Assembly (NCBI GenBank): GCA_012511885.1
Contig: JAAZFE010000124.1
Coordinates: 1-63,451 of the forward strand
Length of the DNA stretch: 63,451 nucleotides
DNA from: Lentisphaerota bacterium
GTDB lineage: Bacteria; Verrucomicrobiota; Kiritimatiellia; CAIQIC01; Lenti-01
Reading direction: 5' to 3'
The position numbers and the translations under genes are program-made. Position 1 is the first letter of the stretch. Each line of letters starts with the position of its first letter. The notes below the pieces were generated by a model. That model saw only the letters and a program-made list of their open reading frames with translations. It had not been told where the DNA came from and ran no database searches. Shown here in pieces: positions 19,698-50,157 of the stretch.

Positions 19698-20843
19698 TCA
19701 GGATCCAACAATTTGCTGCCACACAAATCGTACAGGTCGAAGCAGCCAATAAACTCCATGCATAGCCGGCGGCAGAGCCCACCAGCGGAAATCCCCATCG
19801 CCCGGGGTTAGGATTCTTCGGATTTGATATCGCTGCTTTTCACGGGGATTCATCCAAAGCTCATGATATCGGCGAAGGTCTTGCCCCCGTACTGAGGATT
19901 CACTGCTGAACAGCAGATGCTCTGATTGGGCCAAGAGTAGGGAGGAGACAAATGGTTGCGCCAGACATGCAAAATCCATTCCCAAGAAATTGTTGGCCAT
20001 CTTACAACCGCCCGCCAATGCGAGTGTTGCCATATGAGAGTTGCCGGCCAGTTCCCGAGCTTCTTCAAGAGCATCGGGATGCCTGACCAGCAGTCCGGCA
20101 ATATCCAGTAGCCAGGCCAGCCGTTCCCACCCATGCCAAATGCCATGCAGACAACCGTAGAGCAGATGCAGCGCAGGAGTCGGCGCGCGCGCCTCGACCT
20201 CATCCAGTTTCTGCCAGGTAAACTGGTCCCTCCAGCTCGAGTTATTGCGCATAGGCCAAGGATAGTGAGGCGGGAACAAGCGATGCTTGAGCTCTACGAT
20301 AAAACCGTCAGGATGGTGAAAAGAAATTCCCCAGCCGAAATGCCACAAATGAAACCGTCTGAGCGAGTCTTCCACTTCCGGCGCGTAACCCTCCCCCATC
20401 AGAACCTTGCCCAGTTTCAGACCATCCTGCGGATCACACAGGAAATCCAGGTCATCATAACTCCGCAAGCCCGGCTCAGGCCACGCCTGTCGAGCCAACG
20501 CGGGACCTTTGAGCAGTGCAAGCGAACGAGCTTGAGGCGCCATGAGGGTATAGAGGCGTTCGGCTTCCCGGGTGAAGCGCGCCGCGTGGCGAACATAGGC
20601 GTATGCCATGGCGGTTGCCTGTTTGTCCGCGGTTGCCAGTTCCGTCTGGAGCAGATTAAATACGCCGTGACGACGGGTCAGAGCAAAGAGTTGCCCGGCA
20701 ATTTGCGCGTCGAGAGGTTCCACCTCATCTTGGATGGGCAGGCCATGAAGACGTCGAAATGCCTGCCGGCAAATTGACCTGAATTTCCCTGCAACGCGAA
20801 TGTCTGTCGTTGGCTCCTGAACGATTCCGACCGATTGCTGCAT
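19698..20843 (-). CDS. Uncharacterised nucleotidyltransferase family protein (NTP_transf_5-like)
   Basis: LLKGPALARQAWPEPGLRSYDDLDFLCDPQD resembles the family core. Start taken at ATG 20843, 1 nt after the upstream stop. Confidence 0.6.
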   Translation of the reverse strand: MQQSVGIVQEPTTDIRVAGKFRSICRQAFRRLHGLPIQDEVEPLDAQIAGQLFALTRRHGVFNLLQTELATADKQATAMAYAYVRHAARFTREAERLYTLMAPQARSLALLKGPALARQAWPEPGLRSYDDLDFLCDPQDGLKLGKVLMGEGYAPEVEDSLRRFHLWHFGWGISFHHPDGFIVELKHRLFPPHYPWPMRNNSSWRDQFTWQKLDEVEARAPTPALHLLYGCLHGIWHGWERLAWLLDIAGLLVRHPDALEEARELAGNSHMATLALAGGCKMANNFLGMDFACLAQPFVSSLLLAQSEHLLFSSESSVRGQDLRRYHELWMNPREKQRYQIRRILTPGDGDFRWWALPPAMHGVYWLLRPVRFVWQQIVGS

Positions 20844-20844: not shown

Positions 20845-22287
20845 TCAACGCGAAGCCTTTGTTGACCGGCAAGCGGGAGTTTCCAACGAGGGGCAGAGTC
20901 TGGCCAGACCATACAGCGCCAGGGCAAGGACAAAGGGCCAGGCAACCAAGGCGTATCTGTGTTCGGCCGTGTTGAAGGCGAAACCCAACATCGTCGTTCG
21001 CAAAAGCACAAAGATGGCTCCGGCCAAAACAACCCGGCCATGCCAACTTTGTGTCAACCTGCGCCAACCCCTGCAAGCCGCCATCCCGCCACCCGCCGCG
21101 AACAAAAGAAGAACCAGCTTAAATAACAACAATGACGCGGTGAGGCATCGGCTGACGACTCGCGGGCAACGGGCCAGCCCGTGCAATACATGAGTGGCAT
21201 TGCTCAGGTTCACCCATAAATGACACGAATTGAATAAACGCCCCCACACATAATAACTCCACGGGGATGCGGCGATTCGGGCTAGGGCCATCTCCTCGAA
21301 TCTGCGGTCGTCCTCTATCGTCATATAGCCCCGCACCTGAACATTTCGCGCGATGTCGGTGAAGGTGTCCAGCTCCGCGGGATTGGTGAACACTCGGTTG
21401 GAGAGCCGTTTTGCATAAAGTTCGTTTATTGTTTCATTCGTCATCCGGCTAAACAGCAATTCTTCTTTCCAATGCTGCGGCCCTATCCACGTGCCAACCC
21501 ACTGCCTAAAGCCCGGGGTGGCGTGACGGAGGTCTCCGACCATTCGAACGCGATGTTCTGTCTGCCAGTGGTAAGCCACATTCAAGCTGACCGCAAACAA
21601 GAAAGACGCACCCGCCAAAGCGGCATAGAGGAGCCATGCTCGCCACGAGAATGCGCCAAGAGCGAGGACGCCAACCACACCCAACATGATGCAGGCCAGG
21701 GCAATCATTTCGGGACGAACCAATAAAGACAAACTGAGCAGCAGGCTGCCAAATAGAATGATCGCACTGCGAACACCTGTCTTGCGGCAGCTCCCCGAAA
21801 GCGTGAGGAACAATAGCCCGGTCACGGCAAGGAACATCGTGAGCGTATCAGGATATATCGACACGATATAAGCCGATGTCCACGGTTGCGCACCCAACAC
21901 CAAAGCCGCCACGGTTCGGAAACTGTTTACAGAAGAGAATCTGAATGTTGCGAACAGCACACAGGTAGTGACCAGTAGATCCAAAATATACTGAACGATG
22001 CTTACCCTCTGCCGAAGCTCCTGAGTGGTCTCGCCACGAGAAATCAGTACCGCAACAAAGGCAGAGTATCCCGGAGGACGAAAATCCGAATACCTTATTT
22101 CTCCCTCTTCAACAGCTTGTACTGGCGGAAACCGGCCGTACTTACATAGGTAACGAGCCTTTGACACATAGTTGGCCTCATCTCCTGAGAGGTCGGCCGA
22201 GAGCGGAGTCAACAGCAACAAGATCAGCTTCACTATCATGAGCGCAAAAAAGATTATCCATGGGATAGATTGCCCCAGCCTTCTCAT
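20845..22287 (-). CDS. GT-C fold membrane glycosyltransferase (ArnT/PMT_2-like)
   Basis: About 11 TM segments. First periplasmic loop has GDEANYVSKARYL and DFRPPGYSAFVAV. Confidence 0.55.
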   Translation of the reverse strand: MRRLGQSIPWIIFFALMIVKLILLLLTPLSADLSGDEANYVSKARYLCKYGRFPPVQAVEEGEIRYSDFRPPGYSAFVAVLISRGETTQELRQRVSIVQYILDLLVTTCVLFATFRFSSVNSFRTVAALVLGAQPWTSAYIVSIYPDTLTMFLAVTGLLFLTLSGSCRKTGVRSAIILFGSLLLSLSLLVRPEMIALACIMLGVVGVLALGAFSWRAWLLYAALAGASFLFAVSLNVAYHWQTEHRVRMVGDLRHATPGFRQWVGTWIGPQHWKEELLFSRMTNETINELYAKRLSNRVFTNPAELDTFTDIARNVQVRGYMTIEDDRRFEEMALARIAASPWSYYVWGRLFNSCHLWVNLSNATHVLHGLARCPRVVSRCLTASLLLFKLVLLLFAAGGGMAACRGWRRLTQSWHGRVVLAGAIFVLLRTTMLGFAFNTAEHRYALVAWPFVLALALYGLARLCPSLETPACRSTKASR

Positions 22288-22290: not shown

Positions 22291-23466
22291 TTAATCCCCT
22301 GTTGCTGAATATGCTGTCGGAAGCGATGTGACGCAAAATGAGCGGACAAGTGCGACTAATGGTGCTGAACAATGCTCCCAAACATATTGTCTTGCGTTAG
22401 TGCGGGCGGCGGCGGAGAGCCGTTGCCATTCGGCCTCATCGGTCAACAGCCGTTGCAAGGCGTCCGCGACGCCAGACACATCGTCAGGATCGTAAAAGAC
22501 ACCTCCCGAACCACAGATTTCCGGAATGGCGCAGACGGTGGAGCTGACCACGGGCGTCCCGAAGAGCTGGGCTTCGATGGCGGGAATGCCAAATGATTCG
22601 CACCGGCTCATCAGGCAGAAAACGCGAGATTCGGCATAGAGCTGATCGAGACGATCACGGGAAACAAAGCCTGGGATTTCAACAGCATTGTCCAGACCGA
22701 GGTCCGAGATCAGACGGCGGATCTTCCTCTCATAAGTTTTGTCGGGCCAGTTGCCGGCCAGCACCAGACGGGCGGACGGGAGTTCTTCGCGAACCAGCCG
22801 AAAAGCCCGCACAAGTGTTTCAATATTTTTATGCGGAGCCATGGCTGACACACATAGGATTTGATGCACCTGGCGGGGGGCGCTCAGCTCGGCTCGCTCG
22901 TGTGTGGAGTCATTGGCGGCTTGATGAACCACGAGGCCTCTTTGCTCGTGAAAACCCGCATTGGCCCGGTAGGCTTCCTGCATATAGCGAGAATTAAAAA
23001 CCATGGCAGCAGCCACGCGCATGGATCGCCGATAGGCACGACGCTGAAGCCAAGCTTTTAAGGCATCACGCCGCCGCCGGGCGGCAGGAACCAGTGCCCA
23101 CGGATTCTGACAGAAGACAATTTGCGGAATGATCAGACCCTGGGCTGCAATGCCACTGGGCGTAAAATAGGCTCGAGCAGCATGGCGTTGGACCAAACGC
23201 GGCAGGTGAACACGTTCCCAAATCGCGCGAAACAGCCAGTGACGGGTGGCCAGGGGAGCAATTACCCAGTCAGTATGCTCATCCAAAGCATCACGCAACT
23301 CGCGCATGTCGTCCCGTGCAACAATCACCAGACGGATGTCGTTGTTCAAACCTTCGACAACCTGTCTCAAGTGCCCGAGCAGCACATGAAGACCGCTGGT
23401 GTGAGTAACCGACAGAGCGTTGACCAGCAATTTAGGCAAGCTCGTCAAGAGAGGTCTCCGCTTCAA
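22291..23466 (-). CDS. GT4-family glycosyltransferase
   Basis: FCLMSRCESFGIPAIEAQLFGTPVVSSTVCAIPEICG. The annotated start is a TTG that overlaps the upstream gene by 35 nt; an alternative TTG is at 23430. Confidence 0.8.
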   Translation of the reverse strand: MKRRPLLTSLPKLLVNALSVTHTSGLHVLLGHLRQVVEGLNNDIRLVIVARDDMRELRDALDEHTDWVIAPLATRHWLFRAIWERVHLPRLVQRHAARAYFTPSGIAAQGLIIPQIVFCQNPWALVPAARRRRDALKAWLQRRAYRRSMRVAAAMVFNSRYMQEAYRANAGFHEQRGLVVHQAANDSTHERAELSAPRQVHQILCVSAMAPHKNIETLVRAFRLVREELPSARLVLAGNWPDKTYERKIRRLISDLGLDNAVEIPGFVSRDRLDQLYAESRVFCLMSRCESFGIPAIEAQLFGTPVVSSTVCAIPEICGSGGVFYDPDDVSGVADALQRLLTDEAEWQRLSAAARTNARQYVWEHCSAPLVALVRSFCVTSLPTAYSATGD

Positions 23467-25330
23467 CGATATTCCATCGGATCAGGCGCACGGGACTTCC
23501 GCGAAGCACCTGCCGGAGGCTGTGCAACTCTTCATCTGAGATGGCTTCAGTCAGATACAGACGGTCAATTCGATGCTGAACTATCAACGTGGACAGATCA
23601 TGGATTCCGCCCACCACACGAATGCCGTGGACCGCATGCCCGATGGTTGCCGTATCGTTGCTGACAAGCCCCGCGATATCCAAGGGCTCCAGCGGCGGCT
23701 CACGGAACACCGCCTGGCGCAGAAACAAAGAGGTGCGATATCCCGTGCCATAAATCAATGCACGAGAGCTGCGGCCAAACCGTCCGGGGACTCGCATGCG
23801 CCGCTGCATCAGATCCTGGACCACCCGCAACGCGGCTCGCGTAAACATTACTGCGGGAGCCGCCAAACCACCCAAAAGAAGATAGCGGTGCAAAAGAATC
23901 AGCCCGCCAGCCTTATCCAAGCCGCCCAAAAGATGCAGTCCATAGGCAACGGCATAGCCGAGAACCACGGCAAATCCGGTAGCGGCATATTCGGACACTC
24001 TAGCCAAATACCATATTCGCGTGTAGGAGCGGAACAAAAGCAACATCAAAAAAGGAACGACCACATCGGTGGCCACATGGCGCAACCAAACGGCTTTGAG
24101 CGCCGTGAAGGTTGTTCCTTCTGGAACTGTCATCAGACAGTGGACAGCCAGCAATGCCGCATTCAGAATCAACAGATCGCCGATAATATAAAGAATCAAG
24201 GTTTGATTGCGCCGTACAGGTCGGGCAAGGCCCTGCAAGACCGCGTGCCCACTCTCGCGAAGCTCAATATCGGCCAGATGACGGACCACGGTATAGGCGG
24301 CCAGCATGAATGCCAGAATAAGGATGCCCAGGGCACGGTCATTGAAAATGGTCACCAAGAGGCCAACGGCTGCCAACGCCATGGTGGCGAGATACAGCAA
24401 ACGCGCCACTTGCCCTTGGTCGCGCCCTTCGCGCAGGAGACGATGGTGCAGATGATCCTGATCGGCCGTGTCCAGCCGGGGCGCGGCATCGTCTCCAGCC
24501 AACTGGCTTAGAAATCGTCGGACGGTACGTCGCCAAACGGCCAGCACGGCATCAAAAAGAGGCACGCCCACCGCCAGCATGGGAACCCCGATACCGGCCA
24601 TAAAAGAGGCTTTGGCATTGGCCGAAATAGAGAGCACCGCCAAAGTAAATCCCAGAAACAGGCTGCCGGCATCGCCCAGAAAGACCGTGGCCGGATAAAA
24701 ATTGTAGCGCAAAAAGCCCAAACAAGCTCCGATCAAGCCCAAAAACAGAAGGATATCGCCCGGGGATTTACGAAAGATAAGCGAAAGCCCAATGCCTGTG
24801 GCGGCAATCGCCGCAATGCCCGTGGCCAACCCATCCACTCCATCAATCAGGTTGAAGGCGTTCATCAAGGCGACAAACCAAATTATGGTCGCCACAGCAT
24901 CCACCCACTCCGGGAAAGAGATCCCGAAGATATTTTGCAAATGAAACCCGGCGGCATAGGCGGCCATGGCCAAAAGCACCTGACCTCCCAATTTGGTCAT
25001 TGGCTTGAGGTTGAAACGGTCGTCCAGCAGCCCCAGCAACATGACTCCCGTGCTCAAGGGCAGAAAACATAACCACCAGTCACTGGACAATTGGCCTGCA
25101 AATGGCTTCCAAGGGGCGAAGAACAACACTATGCATGCCACGTGAAAACCAACATATATGGCAAGGCCCCCCCCGCCCGGCACCGGTTTTTGATGAATTT
25201 TTCGCTGGCCCGGTTTATCCATGAAGCCCCAGCGCGGCGCCATCAGCCGCCAGAGCGGGGTCACGCTAAATGACACCACCAGGCCCGTTAGAAATACCAC
25301 GGGATATTTGAGGATAACTTCCAGGTTCAT
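23432..25330 (-). CDS. WecA/MraY-family polyprenyl-phosphate N-acetylhexosamine-1-P transferase fused to extra TM helices and a C-terminal Rossmann-like (CoA_binding_3/CapD-N-like) domain
   Basis: GLLDDRFNLKPMTKL and NLIDGVDGLATG (PNPT motifs). The C-terminus ALIYGTGYRTSLFL...IAGLVSNDTATIGHAVHGIRVVGG...RIDRLYL resembles the N-terminal module of WbaP/PglF-type proteins. Confidence 0.75.
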   Translation of the reverse strand: MNLEVILKYPVVFLTGLVVSFSVTPLWRLMAPRWGFMDKPGQRKIHQKPVPGGGGLAIYVGFHVACIVLFFAPWKPFAGQLSSDWWLCFLPLSTGVMLLGLLDDRFNLKPMTKLGGQVLLAMAAYAAGFHLQNIFGISFPEWVDAVATIIWFVALMNAFNLIDGVDGLATGIAAIAATGIGLSLIFRKSPGDILLFLGLIGACLGFLRYNFYPATVFLGDAGSLFLGFTLAVLSISANAKASFMAGIGVPMLAVGVPLFDAVLAVWRRTVRRFLSQLAGDDAAPRLDTADQDHLHHRLLREGRDQGQVARLLYLATMALAAVGLLVTIFNDRALGILILAFMLAAYTVVRHLADIELRESGHAVLQGLARPVRRNQTLILYIIGDLLILNAALLAVHCLMTVPEGTTFTALKAVWLRHVATDVVVPFLMLLLFRSYTRIWYLARVSEYAATGFAVVLGYAVAYGLHLLGGLDKAGGLILLHRYLLLGGLAAPAVMFTRAALRVVQDLMQRRMRVPGRFGRSSRALIYGTGYRTSLFLRQAVFREPPLEPLDIAGLVSNDTATIGHAVHGIRVVGGIHDLSTLIVQHRIDRLYLTEAISDEELHSLRQVLRGSPVRLIRWNIVEAETSLDELA

Positions 25331-26523
25331 GGCCAGCCTTGCCCTGCTTTTTCCACGATGTCGGCCAGTCTAGCACAATTGTCCTCGGCGGAGAAGTCGT
25401 CGCGATGCAATCGCAAGGCCCGGGCGCCTTTTACGTCGCGCAACCGGGCATCCATCAATTCCAAGGCGATGCTCTGGTATTCATTTGTAGCCGACGGCAG
25501 CAACCAGCCGGCATCGGCAGCAGCCAGCCACCGGCCCACCGCGCTGTGTGGAGAACCCGCAAAAGCCACAGGACGCCCGAGCGCACAGGCCGCCTGAAAC
25601 TTGCTGGGCACAACCACGCCCGTCCACTCTGGCCGCTGGGAAACCAAATGCACATCTGCCGCGCGAAGATGCGCGGCGGCCTGTTCGGCACTCACCGGCG
25701 GCATAAACTCAAACAGATCTCCCCAGCGCCGCTCCCATTCCTTGCGAGCCGACCCATCGCCCGCAAACACAAATCTGCATCGCGGCAAGATTGCCTGCAT
25801 GTGCCGGGCCAGCACCGCAAATTCTTCGGCGGAATGGGCACGCCCCATATTGCCACTGTAAAGCAATATGGTATCACCATCCGCCCACCCGCGCTCCCGG
25901 CGGCACTGCCGGGCCGCAATATCCAAAGAGTCATCCGGACGCAAGTTGCTCCAAACAGGGATCATCTCCACATTGACTGCGCCTCTGTTGCGGAGGTGTT
26001 CCGCCATATCAGGCCCGAGAGCGATAACTGAAGCGGCTCTTCGGCGTTCTTTTTGAGCCAAACGCTTCAGCAATGACAACAGCGGATTCCATGGATGCAG
26101 CCAACCATGGGCAAGGAGAGCTTCCGGATACAGATCCATGCACCACAAAACATAAGGCATCCCCAGCTCGGCCCAGGCCTGAGCTCCCAGCAAGCCAATG
26201 AATGGTGGTGTGGTCAAGCAAACCACGGCGTCCGCAGCCAGCTGGCGAAACAGATGTCGTCTGGCCGCATAATAGAATCGCATATATTCAGCCAGTTTGC
26301 CCGCGAAGCGATTGCCGTGGTGTCCCCTGCTCCCCAGCCGCACCACCCGCACACCCTCGGGGTCCGCGGCAGCACCGTTAGCGCCTGCGCCATAACCTGC
26401 CGCGGAGGCAAGCACCGTGACAGCGTGGCCGCGCTGCGCAAGCATGACGGCCAAATCGTATAGCAGAATGCCCGTTGGAGCCTGTGCCGGCGGGAAGAAC
26501 TGATTGATCAGAGTCAGCTTCAC
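25327..26523 (-). CDS. GT4-family glycosyltransferase (WbuB-like)
   Basis: N-terminus MKLTLINQFFPPAQAPTGILLYDLA. GTGA overlap upstream and ATGA overlap downstream. Confidence 0.8.
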   Translation of the reverse strand: MKLTLINQFFPPAQAPTGILLYDLAVMLAQRGHAVTVLASAAGYGAGANGAAADPEGVRVVRLGSRGHHGNRFAGKLAEYMRFYYAARRHLFRQLAADAVVCLTTPPFIGLLGAQAWAELGMPYVLWCMDLYPEALLAHGWLHPWNPLLSLLKRLAQKERRRAASVIALGPDMAEHLRNRGAVNVEMIPVWSNLRPDDSLDIAARQCRRERGWADGDTILLYSGNMGRAHSAEEFAVLARHMQAILPRCRFVFAGDGSARKEWERRWGDLFEFMPPVSAEQAAAHLRAADVHLVSQRPEWTGVVVPSKFQAACALGRPVAFAGSPHSAVGRWLAAADAGWLLPSATNEYQSIALELMDARLRDVKGARALRLHRDDFSAEDNCARLADIVEKAGQGWP

Positions 26524-27398
26524 ACAGGTCTTTTACGATTGGCCTGCCGTTTTTCCAATATTTTAGCACGCACCTGTTCGATATAGGCACGTCGGATTTG
26601 TGCGGCAATCAGGCCTCGCCGCCCTTCAAGGAATCCTCCGCATAGAACATAATGATAGAGGAACCATGCCCAACCTTCGCCGGGCAAGCGCATGGCAACA
26701 AGTTTCAAGAAACGTCGGCGTTCCTGCGCGTTGCCGAACAGCCGTGGCCGAATGGCCCTCACACCATAACGGCCGGCAGAGAGCGCCTGGAAGCGGACTG
26801 CCGCTTCCCAGGTGGAATAAGCGTTGTGTCGATCCAGATAGGCCGAAAGCCCCTTGACGTCGCGGTGTATCAAAGAATGTCCGAAACGACCCATGGAGCC
26901 CTCGACAATCAAGCGTTCATGCACCTCCATGTCGAGCTCTTCCCCAACATCGGGCAGTAGATTTTCAAAGCGTGCCCGGCCGCGCCGGAACAGGAACACG
27001 GCAGTGTGGCTAAATCCCCCGAAACGAAAACATCGCCCCATAAAGTGAAACTGCTTTCGCACAAGATAAGCATCATGAGTCTTGGCTGACGACAGCGCCG
27101 TTCTGACCTCTGTCCATAGTTCCGGTGGAATTGACTCATCGGCATCCAGCAACATGATCCACTCCGTGTTGAAGGATAAAAAGTCTAACGCCCACTGGCG
27201 TTTGCGGGGATATTGGCCGTTCCAGTGAAACTGCACCACCTCCGCGCCGAGCGACTCTGCGATGGTGGCGGTATCGTCCTGGCTTTGAGAGTCCACCACC
27301 ACCACGCGTTGGGCGGGACCAAGGGTGGCAAGGCAGGCCTCGAGATTAGCCGCCTCATTTCGCGCCGCAATGACAACGGTTATGTCCAATTTATCCAT
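26520..27398 (-). CDS. GT2-family glycosyltransferase
   Basis: ITVVIAARNEAANLEACL...VVVVDSQSQDDT...LLDADE. Confidence 0.85.
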   Translation of the reverse strand: MDKLDITVVIAARNEAANLEACLATLGPAQRVVVVDSQSQDDTATIAESLGAEVVQFHWNGQYPRKRQWALDFLSFNTEWIMLLDADESIPPELWTEVRTALSSAKTHDAYLVRKQFHFMGRCFRFGGFSHTAVFLFRRGRARFENLLPDVGEELDMEVHERLIVEGSMGRFGHSLIHRDVKGLSAYLDRHNAYSTWEAAVRFQALSAGRYGVRAIRPRLFGNAQERRRFLKLVAMRLPGEGWAWFLYHYVLCGGFLEGRRGLIAAQIRRAYIEQVRAKILEKRQANRKRPV

Positions 27399-27960
27399 CG
27401 TGGCTGACTTTACGATCACGAATACAGCGCGCGGGATTGCCGCCGACAATCTGCCCGGAAGGCACATCGTGCAAAGCGACCGCGCGCACCCCCACCACGG
27501 CATCCACACCAACGGTTATTCCAAGATGGATATAGGCCTCGGCACAAATCCAGGCCCCATCGTCAATCCGGATTGGTGCGATTTTAAGCGGCATATTGGG
27601 ATGATCCACCTCATGCGTTGCGGCACACAAGAAAGCACGCTGGCTGACTGTGGCATGGGCGCCGATCTCAATTCTTGCCACATTATACAAGTCCACACCG
27701 TGGCTGATGGTGGCATAATCACCCAGGGATAGATTCCAAGGCGCCCAGATGCGTACGGAGGGCATGAGTTGGACTCCACGCCCCACTTGAGCGCCAAACA
27801 GTCGCAAGAGACAACGGCGAGGGGCATGCCAAAACCAGGGCGACGGCCGAAAGAACAGCGCCCAAACCACTTGCCAGAGCAAACGCCCCATCTTGTTGGC
27901 TGCCGAGTGAGGACTCGGGCATGCCAGGCGATCAGTCCTAATCTGAGAGGGCTTGGTCAT
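27391..27960 (-). CDS. Hexapeptide-repeat O-acetyltransferase (WcaF-like)
   Basis: VRIWAPWNLSLGDYATISHGVDLYN...IDDGAWICAEAYIHLGITVG...VGGNPARCI. Confidence 0.85.
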   Translation of the reverse strand: MTKPSQIRTDRLACPSPHSAANKMGRLLWQVVWALFFRPSPWFWHAPRRCLLRLFGAQVGRGVQLMPSVRIWAPWNLSLGDYATISHGVDLYNVARIEIGAHATVSQRAFLCAATHEVDHPNMPLKIAPIRIDDGAWICAEAYIHLGITVGVDAVVGVRAVALHDVPSGQIVGGNPARCIRDRKVSHDG

Positions 27961-29390
27961 GATGATGTTGAATGAACCTCCGCTATAATGTTCGCTTCTA
28001 GCATATTGTTATTCTCGTCACAAGTCGCCCCATTTTCGGGTTGGTTTGAGCTCGAATCTCGATTGTTTCTCGCGTGTGACAGTAATAAACCCATGGTTAA
28101 TGCAAGGAGAAATACAACCAGAGGATCACCGTAAATTTGGGCGGACACCAATGCGGATGCTACATTGGCCACCAAAACAGAAAAGAGACCGGCAATCAAC
28201 GCGATGGCGCCATGCCCTTGCTTGAGCTTCACGACACGGTAGGCAGTAACAAACAACATGGCCCCGAACATCAAAAACAACAAGGTGCCGGGTACTCCCA
28301 GTTCGGCCATCATCTTGCTTGGACCGCTTTCCTGCCAGGCCCGCGGTATTTCCGCATTGGCAATATTGTGCACCCCCTGCTGTGTCACCCCCAAGCCATA
28401 TCCCCAAAATCCGGCCTGTTTCACCGTGCTCAAAACCGAGCCGATCCCATGTCGGTGAAGTTGTACGTCCACCTCTGTAAAGGCTGTCAGATAAAACCTC
28501 TCAACGGCTTCGTCATAAAAGATCGAAGAGATTAAATACCATCCCGAACTTAATACCATGACGATGGCGCCCAGCGTGGAAATGATTCTTTGGACGCGCG
28601 AAAAGCGAAACACCAAAAAGGTATAGCAACCCAAGAAAACCAGACTCATGGAAAACATTTTTCGCCGGCCACAGAGCCAGATATTCACCAGCGCCCAAAT
28701 GGCCAAGCCGACCCAAAGCCAGCGCGCGGCTCTCCGCCGACGAAAGGCAAGAATGATGGCGACCATGAAAGCAAAAGCGGCATGCCAGCCCATCACATCG
28801 GGGCTGCGAAAGAAACCCGCCCTCATGAAGACCGGCGCCCCCATGCGGTGGTGCACCCACACATGATCCAGAGCCTTGGTCCCGATGGCTGCCCAGGAAT
28901 CCCCTGCCCCCCAAACTTCCAGTGGCCCTCCCAACAGCATAATAGCCGCGGCAATGCCATACCAGGCCAACAGCCGTTCAATGGGAAAGCCCGGCAGAGG
29001 ATACTGCCAGCCGGCAACCATCACCAAAAACATGGTTACATACATGAACGCGCCCAGGATGGTGATCAACCAACTGTTGCGGCCATATGTGGCGGAAAGA
29101 GCGGCAGGAATCAGCAGGTAAGCCGCAAAGAGAAGCAGCCAGATATTTAGACGCGGAAAAGTGCGGCCAAATCGTTGAATGTTCAGCTGTTGGGTCAAGT
29201 GCGCCGAAGTGATGACCGCGAGCCAAATGGGCACGCTCGCGAGAACAATATAAGCCGGGGCGCCGGGAATCAGTTTCCGCAAGGGGTCCTGCAGCAAACC
29301 CATCAAAATGGCCGCGCTGATCCCCCAGCGCCAATTGAACAGGGCGAGCAGACAGGCAAGCCCGACCAGCAACAGGAGCAGATTCAGCAT
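27957..29390 (-). CDS. Polytopic membrane protein, putative polysaccharide polymerase (Wzy-like)
   Basis: At least 10 hydrophobic segments and no soluble domain. The ATG at 29390 gives a 7-nt overlap (ATGCTGA) with the upstream gene. The call rests on context and topology. Confidence 0.5.
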   Translation of the reverse strand: MLNLLLLLVGLACLLALFNWRWGISAAILMGLLQDPLRKLIPGAPAYIVLASVPIWLAVITSAHLTQQLNIQRFGRTFPRLNIWLLLFAAYLLIPAALSATYGRNSWLITILGAFMYVTMFLVMVAGWQYPLPGFPIERLLAWYGIAAAIMLLGGPLEVWGAGDSWAAIGTKALDHVWVHHRMGAPVFMRAGFFRSPDVMGWHAAFAFMVAIILAFRRRRAARWLWVGLAIWALVNIWLCGRRKMFSMSLVFLGCYTFLVFRFSRVQRIISTLGAIVMVLSSGWYLISSIFYDEAVERFYLTAFTEVDVQLHRHGIGSVLSTVKQAGFWGYGLGVTQQGVHNIANAEIPRAWQESGPSKMMAELGVPGTLLFLMFGAMLFVTAYRVVKLKQGHGAIALIAGLFSVLVANVASALVSAQIYGDPLVVFLLALTMGLLLSHARNNRDSSSNQPENGATCDENNNMLEANIIAEVHSTSS

Positions 29391-30568
29391 GATTCCCTCC
29401 CCGCGCAAACTCGCGCGGCTGACAAGATGCCTTGGATGGCTTCTTGATAGCTGAATGCCTGGATATGACGGCCGGCAGCTTCCCCCTGCTGAGCTGCCCG
29501 CTCAGGGGCATGCACATATTGCTCCAGAATCCTGGACAAGTCCCGGATATCGCCCAAGTCGAACGCGTGTCCCGTTTCTCCTTCAACAATCAAATCCGGG
29601 CAACACCCGACTGCGCGTGATACTACCGCGGGGCGACCTGAAGCCATGGCTTCGTTCACCACCAAACCCCATGTTTCACCGGCATCCGAGGGCAACACCA
29701 GCACATCCGCCGTCGCATAGACATCCGGCAGGCGCGACTGATTGACAAAACCGGTCAACACAGCGGTCACGCTCAGATCCTTCGCCATATGTTCACATTC
29801 TGCTCGCAGTTCACCATCGCCGGCAACCAGCATTTGAACCTGTGCGCGGGTTTCGGGAGGCAACCGGCCAATCGCCTTGAGCAAATCCAGCGGCCGTTTT
29901 TTTGGCATGAGCTTGCCACAAAATAAAAACACGGTGGCTTGGGGAGCCAAACCCAATCCGGCACGAATCTCAGAGCGACGCTCTGTGCGTGCGACAGCTT
30001 GGCTGGCAAAAAAAGCATTATCCACCACATAGGGCGCCCAAAAGATGCGCTCTTCCGGGCAGCGATGGAAACGATAAAAATCACGGTTAGCCGAGCCAAT
30101 GGCCAAATAACCCGCATACTGGCGGAGCAAAATGCGATGTAAAAGGTGCTTCCAAAGTGCGCGTGGCCGCAACAAATTGGCCTCGCCACGCACCAGACAA
30201 GGAACTCCCAGACGCCTGCAAGCCTGAAGCGCCTGCAGGCAGGTTTTGACTACCCACCCATTAACCAGCACCGCGTCAGGTTGAAAGGCCCGAAGCTGTT
30301 TCAAAATATCCGGGGTGTCGCAACCGTTGAAGCGCGAAACGGACGGTTGCTTGGCGCGGTTGGTCAACACGGTGTAGGGATAGCCATCCAGCAGAGGCAC
30401 ATCCCAGGCAAAAGAAACGCCAAAGTCGCCCCCCTGCTTGGCCGCGTCAGGCAGCATGGCATAAAACACATGCATATTGAGTTCAGGCTGCGCGGCCAGC
30501 CGCCGGAACAGCGGTGCTTTATATTGAATGGGGTGCGTCTCAACAATGGCCAGACGGATCGGTTTCAT
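29384..30568 (-). CDS. GT4-family glycosyltransferase
   Basis: VLVLPSDAGETWGLVVNEAMASGRPAVVSRAVGCCPDLIVEGETG. Confidence 0.85.
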   Translation of the reverse strand: MKPIRLAIVETHPIQYKAPLFRRLAAQPELNMHVFYAMLPDAAKQGGDFGVSFAWDVPLLDGYPYTVLTNRAKQPSVSRFNGCDTPDILKQLRAFQPDAVLVNGWVVKTCLQALQACRRLGVPCLVRGEANLLRPRALWKHLLHRILLRQYAGYLAIGSANRDFYRFHRCPEERIFWAPYVVDNAFFASQAVARTERRSEIRAGLGLAPQATVFLFCGKLMPKKRPLDLLKAIGRLPPETRAQVQMLVAGDGELRAECEHMAKDLSVTAVLTGFVNQSRLPDVYATADVLVLPSDAGETWGLVVNEAMASGRPAVVSRAVGCCPDLIVEGETGHAFDLGDIRDLSRILEQYVHAPERAAQQGEAAGRHIQAFSYQEAIQGILSAARVCAGRESC

Positions 30569-32874
30569 GGCCAGACCTCCCGGAGCCGTTGAGCAGCCAA
30601 GTTTTCACGCGCAACCAGAAAGTCCAAAACAGCCGAACAATCTACGTCCCCCCACCCTTGCATATATTCATGCAGTTCACGGACCGCCTGCTCAGGCTGT
30701 CGCAAAACTTCGCGCTGCCGTTGTGACAACCATAAGCCGGCAGCATCCGTTCCCTGTGGCGCGTCAGCCGAGGCGTTTTCCCAGTCAAATAGAAACAGCT
30801 TCCCCTGAGCATCCAAGAGCATATTGCCGGGTCCCAGATCACCGTGCGCGAAATCTGGAATCGACAAAGATTCCAAATGACGCAAAACGATGTGTCCCCA
30901 TTGCTCGATTTCTGCCTTGCTCAGGAAGGCCCCGGGGTTTGGAAAATTACTTAAAGCAAGGATGGTGCGTCCATTGGACCATAGTTTGGCAAAGAGCACC
31001 GCCGGTATTCCAAAAGGGTGTTCGTGACCGGTCAGTTGCCGCAACATCTCGGCCTCGTTGAACAGTTGTTTCAGGTTGAATTCGCCCGCGCCAATCTTGA
31101 TCACCCCTGCGCCACCACCCGGCACTTGGAATTGCACATAGATTCGGCGGCGCTCGACCCGTGCGGGCCAAGTCAACAGCCACTCCAGCGATTCCACGCT
31201 GAACAGAGCGCGCAACTCAGCCAACAAGGTCTCCAATTCGCCGGCGGACAGCAACTCGGCCACTTCGCAACGTTCTGGAGCCAGCCAGCGATCCAAACCG
31301 CAACGGGCAGCCCACTGAATCGCGCGAATCAACCAAACGCGCTTGGGTGTGGAGCGCGAATACAACGTCAACGCCCGCCAATGGGAATTGGCTGCTCCGG
31401 CCTCATAGGCCAATATCGGCCGGGATCCCACCGACCATTGCCGCCAACTCAGACGCTGCCCCAAACCCAAAGTTGCCCATATTTCATGTTGTCCGGCTGT
31501 CACTATGGACTCGATCCCAGCCCGGCCATCCAAGCAACGGGCAAATGGATACCGCTCGACCAATGTGGCCAGGATCTCCTGCTCGCAAATAATTTCGGCC
31601 ACGGTCAGCTCGGGTTTGCGGGCATAAATGTGTTCCGGGTCATCGGCAAGGCAAAGCAGCAAATCCGGTTTGGGTATCATAAAGAGCAGCGCCCGCAAGA
31701 CCCATTGGGGGCACCGGCGATGACCGAGTTGATAAAAGTAATCGAAAAACGAACGGTCCATGATGACCAGCGCCCACTGACTGCGCCAACGGCGTATCAG
31801 CAATCGGGCCAGACACAGGTCCAGCGCGTAATAACCCGCGAGGGCAACGGATTTCCATGCCGGCAGCGGCTCCATCATACCTTTGAGCATGTCCGGCTCG
31901 GCGGTTGGCGGGTGCGCGGGCAAGCCGAACAGCCGACGCAAAGCCGCGCGCATGTCGCGAAACCGTGGCAGAACACCAACATGGCCATGGACATATCGGC
32001 AGGCCTTGAATGGGCGTTTATAGGTTGAACGAAACAGACCCTCAGCCAACGTTGTTTTTCCGGAACCATCGGCTCCCGCCAAACTCACAACACGCCCGAG
32101 CGCCGGGCGGAACAAGTGTCGGATATTTTGCAGCAGCATGTCGGCGACAGCGAGCCATCTGGTTGGTGTGCGATCGTGGATTGCGCGCCGAAGATCACGG
32201 AGCTGCTCTGGCGTCAGAACCCAGATACCCTGTTGGACCAGTTCCACAATGATGGCCCCCAGCTCTTTGCCAGCGGCCACCGAAAGCGTGTCACGGAACG
32301 AATCGGGGTCTCTCGCGGTATCTTGCCGGAGAGATTCGCGTGAGTTCTCCTTCAATTTCCCGTGAGGCACCCACTCTTTCAACAAGGTAATCGCCGCCTC
32401 CATCCCCGTCGGCAACATCCAAATGCCCTGCCCGTTCCGTAGGCGCTGGCTCAGCACATGTCCGGCATCCAAAAGACGCAAGCCCCGGTACTCGAGTGCC
32501 GTAAAAACATCCAGCGGCAGAAAAAAATAGTCGCCTTCCGGCATATTGAGATAAAGCATGATGCATTGATAGTGGCGCTTCGTTATCCGCCCCAGCACTT
32601 GCCAGCCTGTTTCCGCCAGGCAGGTTTTTAAAATATTCTCAAAAACCGGCAACTGCTCTGCCGCGAGAAGCAGATCAAGGTCATAACGGGTGTACGCAGG
32701 CAACCCGTCGGCATTGCGCAGCACGCACCATGCAATATCAGCCTCATCCAGTTTGGCGGCCAGAAGGCGAATCAAAGGCTCAATGGGCTGAGACCGACCG
32801 GGCGGATTTTCGCCCAAGTTCGGGGGCAGACTCAGCCAACCGGGTTGCATCTGGATCTTGGCCTTCGCGTCCAT
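30565..32874 (-). CDS. Three-domain fusion: N-terminal nucleotidyltransferase-like region + P-loop (Walker A) kinase-like domain + C-terminal APH/choline-kinase-type phosphotransferase domain
   Basis: N-terminal YDLDLLLAAEQL. Middle LAGADGSGKTTLAEGL (about aa 265). C-terminal HGDLGPGNMLLDAQGKLFLFDWENA (about aa 676). Confidence 0.6.
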   Translation of the reverse strand: MDAKAKIQMQPGWLSLPPNLGENPPGRSQPIEPLIRLLAAKLDEADIAWCVLRNADGLPAYTRYDLDLLLAAEQLPVFENILKTCLAETGWQVLGRITKRHYQCIMLYLNMPEGDYFFLPLDVFTALEYRGLRLLDAGHVLSQRLRNGQGIWMLPTGMEAAITLLKEWVPHGKLKENSRESLRQDTARDPDSFRDTLSVAAGKELGAIIVELVQQGIWVLTPEQLRDLRRAIHDRTPTRWLAVADMLLQNIRHLFRPALGRVVSLAGADGSGKTTLAEGLFRSTYKRPFKACRYVHGHVGVLPRFRDMRAALRRLFGLPAHPPTAEPDMLKGMMEPLPAWKSVALAGYYALDLCLARLLIRRWRSQWALVIMDRSFFDYFYQLGHRRCPQWVLRALLFMIPKPDLLLCLADDPEHIYARKPELTVAEIICEQEILATLVERYPFARCLDGRAGIESIVTAGQHEIWATLGLGQRLSWRQWSVGSRPILAYEAGAANSHWRALTLYSRSTPKRVWLIRAIQWAARCGLDRWLAPERCEVAELLSAGELETLLAELRALFSVESLEWLLTWPARVERRRIYVQFQVPGGGAGVIKIGAGEFNLKQLFNEAEMLRQLTGHEHPFGIPAVLFAKLWSNGRTILALSNFPNPGAFLSKAEIEQWGHIVLRHLESLSIPDFAHGDLGPGNMLLDAQGKLFLFDWENASADAPQGTDAAGLWLSQRQREVLRQPEQAVRELHEYMQGWGDVDCSAVLDFLVARENLAAQRLREVWP

Positions 32875-32877
32875 GCT

Positions 32878-34017
32878 TCAGTTCTTATGGTATGAAATGA
32901 AATGAGTTTCCGCCCGCTCATATACCTTTAGCAAGCCCTCGGCCAAACGCTCGTGTGTAAAGCGAGCAGCCTGAGCACGGCCGGCCGCCGTCAGACGCGC
33001 GCGCAATATGGGATCGTGCAGAAGGCTGCCGCAATGCGCGGCAAGTCCGGCCACATCAGTCGGCGGGGCCAACAAGGCGGCATCACCCACTATTTCGGGC
33101 AGTGAAGCCACATCGGAACAGACCACTGGACAACCGCAACTCATGGCTTCGAGGGGTGGCCAGCCAAAGCCCTCATACAGACTCGGAAATAAAAACAAGG
33201 CGGCGCCGCGATACAAGGCGGCCAGCTCGGACTCGGTCACATCCGGCAGAAACTCGACACCCTCCGGCCTGTTTGAACTCTGCAATACTTCCCGCATCGC
33301 CGCATCAGGCGGCGGCCCGATCAGTTTGAGGTCAACTGAAAAACTTCGCCTTACTTCATTGAACACGCGAACAACCCCCGGGCGGTTTTTATAAAAATTA
33401 TTATTCCCCGCGACATGCAGAAGATAGGGTTTCGCGTTGGGCTCACAATCTGCCGTATTGGCCGAAGCCGTCAATTCCGGCACTGCGGAGTGGACCACTG
33501 AGACTTGTTCGGGGGGTATCCGGGACAGGCGCAGGACGTCGGCGCGTGAGTTCTCGCTGACGGTCATGAGATGGTCGGCACGAGCGAGACTCCGAATGGC
33601 CCGTTGTGTGATCCAGGCCGCGCCACGCCCCGGGCGCGGCCCCGAAATATGGCCGCGAAGACACAGTGCCGGGATCAAGTCGTGTACGGCAATCACCAGA
33701 GGAACCCGCAGCGCACCCGTGGCAGCAAGCAGATAGGCATGGCTGCCATCCAAAAGGTGCAAGAGCCCGTCGCGGACCTGGGGCAGCAGACGGCGAGCAT
33801 TGAGGACGATGGCCGCATAGCGCACAGGTTCGCGCAAGCGCGCCGGGAACCGCCGAAGCCAAGCCAGAGGCGGCGACAGTTGCAGCTCTTCAACGGTGCA
33901 GGTGGCGCTGGCGTGGCATTCCAGTGCGGTGCGAATCATCGCCCCATAACGCACCATGCTGCCGTGTACCCGATCGGAGGGAACCGTGCTGACTAAAATG
34001 ACGCGGAGGGGGTTCAT
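32878..34017 (-). CDS. GT4-family glycosyltransferase
   Basis: LFLFPSLYEGFGWPPLEAMSCGCPVVCSDVASLPEIVGDAALL. Confidence 0.85.
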   Translation of the reverse strand: MNPLRVILVSTVPSDRVHGSMVRYGAMIRTALECHASATCTVEELQLSPPLAWLRRFPARLREPVRYAAIVLNARRLLPQVRDGLLHLLDGSHAYLLAATGALRVPLVIAVHDLIPALCLRGHISGPRPGRGAAWITQRAIRSLARADHLMTVSENSRADVLRLSRIPPEQVSVVHSAVPELTASANTADCEPNAKPYLLHVAGNNNFYKNRPGVVRVFNEVRRSFSVDLKLIGPPPDAAMREVLQSSNRPEGVEFLPDVTESELAALYRGAALFLFPSLYEGFGWPPLEAMSCGCPVVCSDVASLPEIVGDAALLAPPTDVAGLAAHCGSLLHDPILRARLTAAGRAQAARFTHERLAEGLLKVYERAETHFISYHKN

Positions 34018-34946: not shown

Positions 34947-34951
34947 AACGG

Positions 34952-45314: not shown

Positions 45315-45326
45315 GTGCGCTGGCGG

Positions 45327-46403: not shown

Positions 46404-46483
46404 GGACCAACTCTCCACCACCAAACCTTTATATCATATTTATGGAGGATGGAAACAAGCAAATCGCTCCGCCGTCAAACGGA

Positions 46484-49665: not shown

Positions 49666-49692
49666 GGGTTGTACTACCTTCTTCTTTTGGAA

Positions 49693-50157
49693 ATGGCCTG
49701 TCTCATGCTGACCCCTCCCGTTATCGTCACGTTGCTTCTCGAACAACACACGCCAGTCACCTTTCGCGCCAGCGGCCCCAGCATGAATCCCACCCTGCGC
49801 GATGGCGATGTGGTTCAAGTTGTGCCCCCGCCATCCGGGCCCCTCAAGCTGGGCAGCCTCGTGCTCTATCGTCTGTACGGCCGCCTGGCCCTGCATCGGG
49901 TCGTGCGCCGGGATTGCCGAAGCCAACGTTGGTTCATTGTCGGCGACGCGGCCGTCGCAGGCGGCGACTGGATAGCAACCGCCGACATCCTCGGTCTGGC
50001 CACACGCGCTCACCGTCAAGACCGGGTCATTTTGCTGGCCACCCGTCGCGTGCGCTATGCGGGTCGGCTCCGCTTCGCCCTGCGCCCATTGCGGCGCGCG
50101 CTGAATCTGGTGCGACAAGCGCTTCATGCCAGCACCTCTTCCCGCAAGAAAGGGTGA
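49693..50157 (+). CDS. Small S26-family (signal-peptidase-like) serine peptidase, apparently Ser/His (ER/archaeal/SipW) type
   Basis: N-terminal hydrophobic segment, GPSMNPTLRDGDVV (Ser box) and LALHRVV (His where bacterial SPase I has Lys). ATG at 49693; the ORF track starts at TTG 49669. Confidence 0.6.
   Translation: MACLMLTPPVIVTLLLEQHTPVTFRASGPSMNPTLRDGDVVQVVPPPSGPLKLGSLVLYRLYGRLALHRVVRRDCRSQRWFIVGDAAVAGGDWIATADILGLATRAHRQDRVILLATRRVRYAGRLRFALRPLRRALNLVRQALHASTSSRKKG

What the first reader, a model, noticed from the sequence alone, without database searches (positions are those of the whole stretch)
19698..20843. An NTP_transf_5-type nucleotidyltransferase, the usual partner of HprK-like RiPP kinases, sits 30 kb away as the last gene of the same minus-strand gene array
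From memory, kinase-containing lasso clusters often include an uncharacterised nucleotidyltransferase of this family. In pseudomycoidin it further decorates the phospho-Ser with a sugar. Here the kinase/PqqD/rSAM/peptide set lies at 50.1-52.6 kb. The only NTP_transf_5-like gene (DDLDFLCDPQD core) is the terminal gene of the glycan locus at 19.7-20.8 kb. Almost everything between them is on the same strand with minimal gaps. The RiPP-like genes therefore bracket the polysaccharide locus. One testable speculation is that the peptide's phosphorylated C-terminal Ser is glycosylated, or even serves as a primer or anchor for a glycan made by the intervening enzymes, giving a peptide-phospho-glycan conjugate.
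Basis: inference. Interest (0 to 1): 0.65.

Follow-up and report, generated by a model that had tools for sequence, protein, structure and literature searches.

The report
PsmN-type nucleotidyltransferase ending a glycan locus
The gene is a real, intact enzyme of the family that puts sugars on phosphorylated peptides, and across a whole bacterial class it closes a 43-kb polysaccharide locus that opens with a peptide-and-kinase set, which hints, without proving, that peptide and sugar chemistry are linked there.

Summary
Window 19698-20843(-) encodes a 381-aa PF14907 (NTP_transf_5) protein with an invariant DxD and a confidently predicted nucleotidyltransferase fold. It is the only such gene in the window and is translationally coupled to the gene before it.

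- For it: six distant relatives in other phyla sit directly beside an HprK-like kinase. At least three of those loci are lasso clusters; in the other three I identified only the kinase and the PF14907 gene. Homologous kinase-PqqD-rSAM-peptide cassettes on metagenome contigs carry a PF14907 gene directly upstream of the kinase in 4 of 8 informative cases.
- For it: the layout seen here recurs in five measured Kiritimatiellia lineages. The peptide cassette is at the head, an EPS locus is in the middle, and this gene is at the tail, 28-31 kb from the kinase. Every peptide ends in Ser.
- Against it: within Kiritimatiellia the gene is never near the kinase. It tracks the WecA-like initiating transferase, which lies within 5 kb in 24 of 31 loci and directly adjacent in 11. 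It is usually convergent, so it is its own transcript, and it stays with the WecA-like gene where no contiguous kinase cassette is visible.

A peptide-phospho-glycan product remains untested.

The parts
19698..20843 (-). NTP_transf_5 (PF14907) nucleotidyltransferase, 381 aa. This is the finding itself. Catalytic D131-L-D133.
   Evidence: Pfam. Invariant columns in the 26-sequence alignment. AF2 model with pLDDT 88.5, with NTase-fold matches. dN/dS 0.25.
20845..22287 (-). 480-aa multi-pass membrane protein with no Pfam hit (GT-C-like by eye only). It occupies a variable slot between GT4 and NTP5. Its stop lies 1 nt before the NTP5 ATG.
   Evidence: In relatives the slot holds Acyl_transf_3 (L005) or a sulfatase-family gene plus another (L010).
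22291..23466 (-). GT4 glycosyltransferase (Glycos_transf_1).
   Evidence: Conserved next to the WecA-like gene in relatives.
23432..25330 (-). 632-aa WecA/MraY-type polyprenyl-phosphate HexNAc-1-P transferase (PF00953). Its C-terminal region resembles the N-terminal part of WbaP/WcaJ-type transferases. It is the gene that NTP5 tracks across Kiritimatiellia.
25327..41917 (-). Glycan body: GT4, GT2, hexapeptide acyltransferase, 483-aa membrane protein, GT1, a 769-aa kinase-like protein, further GT1 and GT2 genes, a STELLO-like GT, and the Wzt/Wzm ABC exporter.
41848..50214 (-). Wzy_C protein, Wzc-like tyrosine autokinase/co-polymerase, Wza-like exporter, EpsL/BBP2_2-like outer-membrane protein, and an 814-aa FecR-domain protein.
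   Evidence: The same order is seen in L007, L009, L065-L069 and L071.
50124..51029 (-). ScmC/HprK-like P-loop kinase, 301 aa.
   Evidence: PF07475 at 3e-4. TIGR04249 at 4e-10 and TIGR04352 at 3e-8, both below cut-off. The identical protein carries a precomputed PF27840 'ScmC' hit.
51026..51211 (-). 61-aa precursor-like peptide with a YEKPDI...TETL leader-like motif, two Cys and a C-terminal Ser.
   Evidence: Homologous peptides in 10 other loci (7 from the cassettes outside the PVC loci) all end in Ser.
51208..52344 (-). Radical SAM/SPASM-type maturase.
52287..52637 (-). PqqD-family (RRE) protein. The true start is probably near 52580.
   Evidence: Orthologues are 96-99 aa.
52586..62722 (-). 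3378-aa surface protein heading the array. Orthologues carry SdrD_B, CLIPPER, GEVED and Peptidase_C25 domains.
   Evidence: Precomputed Pfam hits on orthologues.

Best explanation
Shown: the gene encodes a catalytically intact PF14907 nucleotidyltransferase with a predicted nucleotidyltransferase fold. PsmN of pseudomycoidin appears to belong to the same family. The gene is a fixed tail component of a roughly 43-kb supercluster conserved across Kiritimatiellia. The order is: giant C25/SdrD_B surface protein, PqqD, rSAM, a peptide with a C-terminal Ser, ScmC-type kinase, FecR-like protein, outer-membrane protein, Wza, Wzc, Wzy_C, Wzm/Wzt, glycosyltransferases, a WecA-like initiating transferase, a variable slot, then NTP5.

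Inferred: the kinase phosphorylates the invariant C-terminal Ser of the rSAM-modified peptide, as lasso-peptide HprK-type kinases do. NTP5 then uses a nucleotide-activated donor to decorate that phosphate, as PsmN does when it adds hexose to phospho-Ser. Because the gene has moved from its usual place beside the kinase to a place beside the initiating sugar-phosphate transferase, the group it attaches is probably drawn from, or handed on to, the glycan pathway. The donor, the product, and whether a full glycan is attached are unknown.
For: Family and chemistry:
- PF14907 at 108.8 bits.
- K112-G113-P114, D131 and D133 are invariant in 26 orthologues down to 35% identity. PsmN D134A/D136A is inactive (PMC6993621).
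- The AF2 model has pLDDT 88.5. Its best fold matches are MenT1, LnuA, TM1012 and ANT(2'')-Ia. The ANT(2'')-Ia entries 5cfs and 4xje are the ones reported as PsmN's structural relatives.

Partnership with the kinase elsewhere:
- In 6 of 6 distant GTDB loci an HprK-like kinase ORF lies directly upstream of the PF14907 gene. L041 was confirmed as a lasso BGC by NCBIfam and Pfam. L042 shows the same gene layout. L044 has a lasso-cyclase hit. L040, L043 and L045 were characterised only for the kinase and the NTP5 gene.
- Cassettes homologous to this window's (rSAM 32-33% identical over its full length, kinase 32-39%, peptide ending in Ser) carry PF14907 directly upstream of the kinase in L047, L052 and L059. 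A fourth locus, L063, has PF14907, PqqD and a weak kinase match but no rSAM hit.

Co-occurrence within Kiritimatiellia:
- Both genes were measured on the same contig at 28.4, 30.2, 30.5 and 30.9 kb, against 29.3 kb here.
- All homologous peptides found (10 loci besides the window) end in Ser.
Against: - In Kiritimatiellia the gene is never within 10 kb of the kinase, PqqD or rSAM genes (0 of 31 loci).
- It tracks the WecA-like gene instead: within 5 kb in 24 of 31 loci, in 21 of 22 loci with usable flanks, and less than 150 nt away in 11.
- In 19 of 24 loci it is convergent to the array, so it is transcribed separately.
- It stays with the WecA-like gene in L031, a compact locus flanked by unrelated genes, and in L025, where the two genes form a unit on their own. 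No kinase cassette is contiguous in either.
- Its codon composition (GC3 0.565) matches the glycan body (0.57-0.65), not the kinase block (0.66-0.80).
- Co-occurrence with the kinase cannot be separated from co-occurrence with the whole supercluster using the data I could reach.
- No biochemical data exist for any member except the in vivo genetics on PsmN.
Confidence: 0.45

Rival explanations
1. NTP5 is a glycan-pathway enzyme. In Kiritimatiellia it has been recruited to work with the WecA-like initiating transferase and has no role on the peptide. For example, it might nucleotidylate or transfer a phospho-group onto the lipid-linked first sugar, or install a phosphodiester-linked decoration in the manner of LicD/FKRP. 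Its presence in the same supercluster as the kinase is then only shared neighbourhood.
For: - Tight and orientation-independent linkage to the WecA-like gene.
- The two genes overlap or nearly abut in L025 (3-nt gap) and L072 (8-nt overlap).
- The pair persists in L031 and L025 without a contiguous kinase cassette.
- GC3 is like the glycan body.
- PF14907 also occurs outside RiPP contexts, for example beside PEP mutase and a thymidylate kinase in a phosphonate gene-cluster family (PMC8942020).
- FKRP, which transfers ribitol phosphate from CDP-ribitol, appears among the fold matches (rank 8, probability 0.90).
Against: - Every relative found outside the PVC loci sits next to an HprK-like kinase in a peptide cassette.
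- No PF14907 member has a demonstrated glycan or lipid substrate.
- Both genes are retained together in all five lineages where both ends could be measured.
Confidence: 0.33
2. NTP5 nucleotidylates a protein or small molecule as a regulator, or is a toxin-like enzyme. It might, for example, AMPylate Wzc or the C-terminal Rossmann-like domain of the WecA-like protein, or act in the manner of MenT. In that case it is not a biosynthetic tailoring enzyme at all.
For: The best fold match is the MenT1 toxin (E 7e-4). In most lineages the gene is a monocistronic unit convergent to the array.
Against: - At 381 aa, with a conserved helical C-terminal domain, it is twice the size of MenT.
- I saw no antitoxin-like partner.
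- Its position is stable over deep divergence, and its relatives lie inside peptide biosynthetic cassettes.
- It is under purifying selection, like its neighbours.
Confidence: 0.07

Closest known systems
PsmN/PsmK of the pseudomycoidin lasso cluster (Bacillus pseudomycoides; PMC6993621)
   Same: Both have an 'uncharacterised nucleotidyltransferase' with a catalytic DxD at almost the same position (D134/D136 against D131/D133). Both show ANT(2'')-like structural similarity. Both have an HprK-type kinase in the same gene array and a precursor ending in Ser.
   Different: PsmN lies inside a compact lasso cluster close to the kinase. Here there is no lasso cyclase or B2 protease, and the maturase is a radical SAM/SPASM enzyme. 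The two genes are 29 kb apart with an EPS locus between them. I did not compare the PsmN sequence directly.
Paeninodin-type HprK-like lasso kinases (reviewed in PMC8498205)
   Same: The kinase is specific for the C-terminal Ser of a precursor peptide. All peptides of this family end in Ser.
   Different: The kinase here belongs to the ScmC branch: TIGR04249 is the best hit at 39.5 bits, below its cut-off of 125. It works in an rSAM cassette.
SynChlorMet (SCM) cassette: ScmC, ScmD (PqqD) and ScmE/F rSAM (NCBIfam TIGR04248-04251)
   Same: It combines an HprK-like protein, a PqqD protein and an rSAM/SPASM enzyme. Homologues of the kinase carry the precomputed Pfam PF27840 'ScmC' hit.
   Different: All NCBIfam scores are far below the equivalog cut-offs. 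There is one rSAM gene, not two. The cassette is embedded at the head of an EPS locus, with a PF14907 gene at the far end.
NTP5-kinase-PqqD-rSAM-peptide cassettes on JGI metagenome contigs
   Same: All four proteins and the peptide (Y.KP...ETL..C...C...S-end) are homologous.
   Different: PF14907 is immediately upstream of the kinase there. No WecA, Wza or Wzc genes are present. The genes that follow encode a CBM96/beta-propeller protein, a lipoprotein and an S24-like peptidase.
LicD/FKRP-type phosphotransferases that use CDP-activated donors
   Same: A fold match (6kak, probability 0.90) offers a precedent for this kind of enzyme making phosphodiester links to glycans.
   Different: The match is weak (E 0.39, TM 0.2). 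There is no sequence relationship. It is a mechanistic analogy only.

Membership tests
Pfam PF14907 NTP_transf_5 | Score above the family's gathering threshold over most of the model. | tested here: met
   108.8 bits against 31.2; profile positions 7-228 of 249.
Nucleotidyltransferase fold (ANT/Lnu/MenT-like) | A G-[GSP] loop followed by an acidic DxD pair, plus a third acidic residue on the neighbouring strand; the alpha/beta NTase fold. | tested here: met
   K112-G113-P114, D131, D133 and E184 are invariant. The AF2 model has pLDDT 88.5 and pTM 0.89. Foldseek top hits are MenT1, LnuA, TM1012 and ANT(2'')-Ia, with probability 0.84-1.00 and target TM 0.5-0.65.
PsmN-type RiPP tailoring enzyme (phospho-Ser decoration) | Encoded beside an HprK-type kinase inside the peptide cluster. 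| tested here: not met
   It lies 29.3 kb from the kinase here. 0 of 31 Kiritimatiellia-type loci have a kinase within 10 kb. The feature is met only in distant relatives (L040-L045, L047, L052, L059, L063).
PsmN-type RiPP tailoring enzyme (phospho-Ser decoration) | A precursor peptide with a C-terminal Ser and a kinase in the same gene array. | tested here: met
   The peptide is at 51026-51211 and ends ...FMGGS. The kinase is at 50124-51029, on the same strand and in the same array. The C-terminal Ser is invariant in homologues.
PsmN-type RiPP tailoring enzyme (phospho-Ser decoration) | NTP5-dependent addition of hexose to the phosphorylated peptide. | not testable with these tools
   This needs expression and mass spectrometry.
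Lasso peptide biosynthetic cluster | An Asn-synthetase-like lasso cyclase and a B2 (transglutaminase-like) protease. | tested here: not met
   Neither is among the 27 genes of the array (Pfam on 27 of them and NCBIfam on 10). Both are present in the distant locus L041.
SynChlorMet cassette (NCBIfam equivalogs) | ScmC, ScmD and ScmE/F scores above the equivalog cut-offs. | tested here: not met
   ScmC scores 39.5 against 125. ScmF scores 90.9 and ScmE 73.8 against 400. These are relatives, not members.

The most novel reading that the evidence does not exclude
The Kiritimatiellia supercluster makes a covalent peptide-phosphodiester-glycan. The rSAM-crosslinked ribosomal peptide is phosphorylated on its C-terminal Ser. 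NTP5, sitting beside the initiating WecA-like transferase, then joins that phosphate to the first sugar or to the finished chain. A ribosomal peptide would thus act as primer, anchor or cap of an exported polysaccharide.
Probability: 0.2. Interest if true: 0.9.

Novelty: new variant of a known kind. Interest (0 to 1): 0.6.

Why it matters
Only one PF14907 enzyme (PsmN) has any functional data, and that is in vivo genetics only.

This work shows three things:
- The kinase/nucleotidyltransferase pair is not confined to lasso peptides. It also serves a radical-SAM peptide family with an invariant C-terminal Ser.
- In a whole bacterial class the pair has been pulled apart and placed at the two ends of a conserved exopolysaccharide locus.
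- The nucleotidyltransferase sits beside the enzyme that starts the glycan.

That arrangement gives a concrete, testable reason to look for crosstalk between ribosomal-peptide and polysaccharide biosynthesis. It also points to a practical system, because the organisms are common in anaerobic digesters and wastewater. If the link is not real, the result still gives PF14907 a second, non-RiPP context that needs explaining.

Tried and rejected
- RNA evidence for transcription units: no RNA run holds the stretch. Only DNA metagenomes do.
- Sequence search of the PDB with the 26-sequence profile found nothing meaningful. Fold search was needed instead.
- A literature search for SynChlorMet/ScmC/HprK-related kinase returned only unrelated 'SCMC' papers. 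A search for 'Kiritimatiell' with exopolysaccharide and radical SAM returned none. PF14907 appears in only one work.
It returned only distant kinases, but these turned out to be informative.
- My GC3-based gene caller works on the high-GC loci but mis-calls the NTP5 region of the window. For the window I relied on ORFs supported by Pfam or by homologues.
- The radical SAM gene near NTP5 in L031 looked like a possible nearby RiPP cassette. It is unrelated to the window's rSAM (E 0.017 over 135 aa) and looks HydE/BioB-like by eye. I rejected it.
- HMM bit scores do not show whether the Kiritimatiellia NTP5 is nearer to the rSAM-cassette type (107-119 bits) or to the type beside HprK-like kinases in the distant GTDB loci (80-112 bits). 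I therefore make no claim about its origin.
- Genome-level presence/absence of the kinase against NTP5 could not be done, because only one scan of the genome collection was allowed. Co-occurrence therefore rests on shared contigs.
- PDB sequence searches for the 769-aa kinase-like protein and the 480-aa membrane protein were uninformative.
Full report
**1. The observation**

Window 19698-20843 (minus strand) is an ORF of 381 aa containing 'YDDLDFLCDPQD'. It matches Pfam PF14907 (NTP_transf_5, 'uncharacterised nucleotidyltransferase') at E 4.2e-31 and 108.8 bits, against a gathering score of 31.2. I built HMMs from 120 homologues of this protein and 120 homologues of the kinase. These find exactly one NTP5 ORF and exactly one ScmC/HprK-like kinase ORF in the 63-kb window.

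From 62722 down to 19698 every supported gene is on the minus strand. In order they are:
- a 3378-aa surface protein;
- PqqD, rSAM, peptide and kinase;
- an 814-aa FecR-domain protein and an EpsL/BBP2_2-like outer-membrane protein;
- Wza, Wzc, Wzy_C and Wzm/Wzt;
- a run of GT2, GT4 and STELLO-like transferases, and a 769-aa kinase-like protein;
- a 632-aa WecA-like initiating transferase, a GT4 and a 480-aa membrane protein;
- NTP5.

The stop codon of the 480-aa gene is followed by a single base and then the NTP5 ATG. No promoter-like site occurs in 19.0-23.6 kb.

**2. What the protein is**

A search of about 5.8 billion proteins gave 163 homologues. All of the 120 best that are listed carry PF14907, and the few that are named are from Kiritimatiellia. 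In an alignment of 26 orthologues reaching down to 35% identity, these residues are invariant: K112-G113-P114, R127, D131, D133, E184, H226, H233, W236-H237-G238, and P347-G348..D351-F352.

AlphaFold2 on that alignment gives a confident model (pLDDT 88.5, pTM 0.89). Its best matches among solved structures are nucleotidyltransferases: MenT1, a fungal NTase-like protein, LnuA, TM1012 and ANT(2'')-Ia. FKRP appears further down the list. The ANT(2'')-Ia entries 5cfs and 4xje are the same ones reported as structural relatives of PsmN, whose D134A/D136A mutant is dead (PMC6993621).

Against its 86%-identical orthologue the gene shows dN/dS 0.25. It is an intact enzyme under selection.

**3. Is it 'the usual partner of HprK-like RiPP kinases'?**

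PsmN is an 'uncharacterised NTP transferase'. It is required for one or two hexoses on the phosphate that the HprK-type kinase PsmK places on the C-terminal Ser of pseudomycoidin. Such genes recur in lasso clusters.

My own data agree.
- The six most distant relatives recovered from GTDB genomes are from Binataceae, a delta-proteobacterial MAG and Gemmatimonadaceae, at 25-29% identity. All six have an HprK-like kinase ORF immediately upstream of the PF14907 gene.
- L041 is a textbook lasso cluster, with a lasso cyclase (NF033535), B2 (NF033537), a lasso PqqD, an HprK_rel_A-like kinase, PF14907 and an ABC transporter.
- L042 shows the same gene layout, and L044 has a lasso-cyclase hit. For L040, L043 and L045 I identified only the kinase and the NTP5 gene.

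**4. A homologous radical-SAM cassette with the gene beside the kinase**

This is the more telling result. Scanning JGI metagenome contigs with a kinase profile returned cassettes that are homologous to this window's, not to lasso clusters. They comprise a kinase (32-39% identical), PqqD, an rSAM gene (32-33% identical over its full length) and a 53-63-aa peptide.

In L047, L052 and L059 a PF14907 gene lies directly upstream of the kinase. L047 scores E 1e-61 against PF14907. A fourth, more divergent locus, L063, also has a PF14907-like gene, followed by PqqD and a weak kinase match, but no rSAM hit. In L048, L049, L050 and L061 none is present in the available upstream sequence.

The peptides share Y.KP...ETL..C...C... 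with the window's peptide. Every one found (10 loci besides the window, 7 of them from these cassettes) ends in Ser. So the kinase/NTP5 pair is an optional module of this rSAM peptide family too.

**5. What happens in Kiritimatiellia**

I examined 31 orthologous loci: 29 GTDB species representatives and 2 metagenome contigs, each with up to 10 kb on either side. None has a kinase, PqqD or RiPP-type rSAM near NTP5. Instead the gene tracks the 632-aa WecA-like gene.
- The WecA-like gene lies within 5 kb in 24 of 31 loci.
- It does so in 21 of 22 loci that have at least 2.8 kb on both sides. The exception is L021.
- The gap is below 150 nt in 11 loci.
- The orientation is convergent in 19 of the 24. 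It is co-directional in 5 of the 24, and also in this window and in L072.
- In L072 NTP5 overlaps the WecA-like stop by 8 nt.
- The slot between GT4 and NTP5 is variable. It holds the 480-aa membrane protein here, an acyltransferase in L005, and a sulfatase-family gene plus another in L010.

**6. The supercluster**

Every kinase locus I looked at in this class has the same head and export block as the window (L007, L009, L065-L069, L071). In four lineages I could place both genes on one contig.

| Contig | Gap between the two genes (kb) | NTP5 orientation |
|---|---|---|
| NODE_3 (216,647 bp) | 28.4 | convergent |
| NODE_64 (101,528 bp) | 30.2 | convergent |
| contig_35302 (474,415 bp) | 30.5 | convergent |
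| JBMXUA010000033.1 | 30.9 | same strand, terminal gene |
| this window | 29.3 | same strand, terminal gene |

These are 348,789, 151,779, 42,111, 35,444 and 96,633 bp, and 80,892 bp for L012 and P0188. It is not a coincidence of this genome.

**7.

Locally it does co-vary with the glycosyltransferases.
- In L031 the compact unit Wzm-Wzt-acyltransferase-GT2-GT4-WecA-like, followed by a convergent NTP5, is flanked by a T2SS-L-like gene and an rSAM gene unrelated to the window's. No kinase cassette is contiguous.
- In L025 (Tichowtungia) the WecA-like gene and NTP5 form a two-gene unit between an aminotransferase and a QueC-like gene.
- In this window NTP5 has the lowest GC3 of the array (0.565). 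It groups with the glycan body (0.57-0.65), not with the kinase block (0.66-0.80).
- NTP5 and the 480-aa gene are more diverged from the close relative (dS 0.19-0.29) than the neighbouring GT genes (0.08-0.14), which suggests a separate history for the locus end.

I found no Kiritimatiellia locus where NTP5 goes with the kinase and without the WecA-like gene. But I could not scan whole genomes for the kinase, so I cannot say whether the L025 and L031 genomes lack it.

**8. Mechanism**

Shown: family membership, an intact active site, a conserved position, the adjacent pairing with the kinase in other phyla, and the invariant C-terminal Ser.

Inferred (confidence 0.45): the kinase phosphorylates the C-terminal Ser of the rSAM-modified peptide, and NTP5 decorates that phosphate from a nucleotide-activated donor, as PsmN does. 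Its relocation next to the initiating sugar-phosphate transferase suggests that the group comes from, or feeds into, the glycan pathway.

The main rival (0.33) is that the enzyme has been recruited to the glycan pathway itself, acting with the WecA-like enzyme on a lipid-linked or phospho-sugar substrate. This would resemble LicD/FKRP-type enzymes. PF14907 is also seen next to PEP mutase and a thymidylate kinase in phosphonate clusters.

A regulatory or toxin-like nucleotidyltransferase is a minor rival (0.07).

The boldest reading that the evidence does not exclude is a covalent peptide-phosphodiester-glycan. I put it at about 0.2.

**9. Comparison with known systems and novelty**

The gene is a member of PF14907 and has a nucleotidyltransferase fold; both were tested and met. 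It works like PsmN only by inference. One defining feature of that class, adjacency to the kinase inside the cluster, is not met here. The array is not a lasso cluster, because it has no cyclase and no B2 protein. The cassette is related to the SynChlorMet cassette but scores far below its equivalog cut-offs.

I found no paper describing the Kiritimatiellia supercluster, though the searches were limited. I rate it a new variant of a known kind, with interest 0.6.

Noticed in passing
window 51026-51211(-); L007 9813-10001; L009 9774-10001; L048-L050, L054, L058: The 53-63-aa peptide family shares a leader-like motif Y.KP.(I/V)...(E)TL that resembles the lasso YxxPxL...T recognition motif. It also has two Cys and an invariant C-terminal Ser. 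The position of the peptide gene varies: it precedes PqqD in L067, and L065 has two small ORFs.
   Followed up: partly
window 23432-25330(-): The WecA-like protein is a fusion. It has a PF00953 PNPT domain (residues 87-237). Its C-terminal 230 aa match the N-terminal, non-catalytic part of WbaP/WcaJ-type transferases (TIGR03025 positions 2-216), with a weak CoA_binding_3 hit.
   Followed up: no
window 30565-32874(-): A 769-aa protein in the glycan body has weak P-loop/dTMP-kinase-like and APH/choline-kinase-like matches, and it is conserved in relatives. A phosphonate-cluster paper notes PF14907 next to a thymidylate kinase. This protein could therefore be an alternative kinase partner for NTP5.
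   Followed up: partly
window 47770-50214(-): The 814-aa protein after the kinase has a FecR domain and a C-terminal region weakly like GH5 (E 0.004). The usual 'NEP' acid/base motif appears to read 'NTA' ('WDLYNTAGN'); I did not verify this by alignment. In the metagenome cassettes a secreted CBM96/beta-propeller protein and an S24-like peptidase follow the peptide gene.
   Followed up: partly
window 19698-62722: The array is split by composition. The head block (giant protein to outer-membrane protein, about 46.5-62.7 kb) has GC3 0.66-0.80. The export, GT and NTP5 part has GC3 0.565-0.65, with Wzm the one outlier at 0.73.
   Followed up: partly
window 15988-17611 vs L001 13233-17380: Against a relative with about 95% nucleotide identity, the segment just beyond MdcA does not align. 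It carries Wzy_C and MBOAT genes in the relative. The 480-aa gene and NTP5 are markedly more diverged than the adjacent GT genes, so the locus end looks recombinogenic.
   Followed up: partly
window 17644-19272(+) and 19290-19685(+): A lone malonate decarboxylase alpha-subunit gene (PF16957, E 2e-227) and a small gene for an apparently secreted protein converge on NTP5. Only 12 nt separate the two stop codons.
   Followed up: no
L016, L017, L070 (positions about 1200-8300): In several lineages a second EPS export set lies on the other side of NTP5. It comprises a Wzy_C-TPR protein, Poly_export, a Wzc-like protein and a BBP2_2 protein. In L070 it is followed by FHA and prepilin-type genes. NTP5 therefore marks the boundary between two polysaccharide loci.
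   Followed up: no
L021 (JBFXHR010000006.1, 106 kb): This is the one orthologue (51% identity) with no WecA-like or GT gene within 10 kb on either side. Nearby ORFs with low GC3 suggest an insertion or rearrangement.
   Followed up: partly
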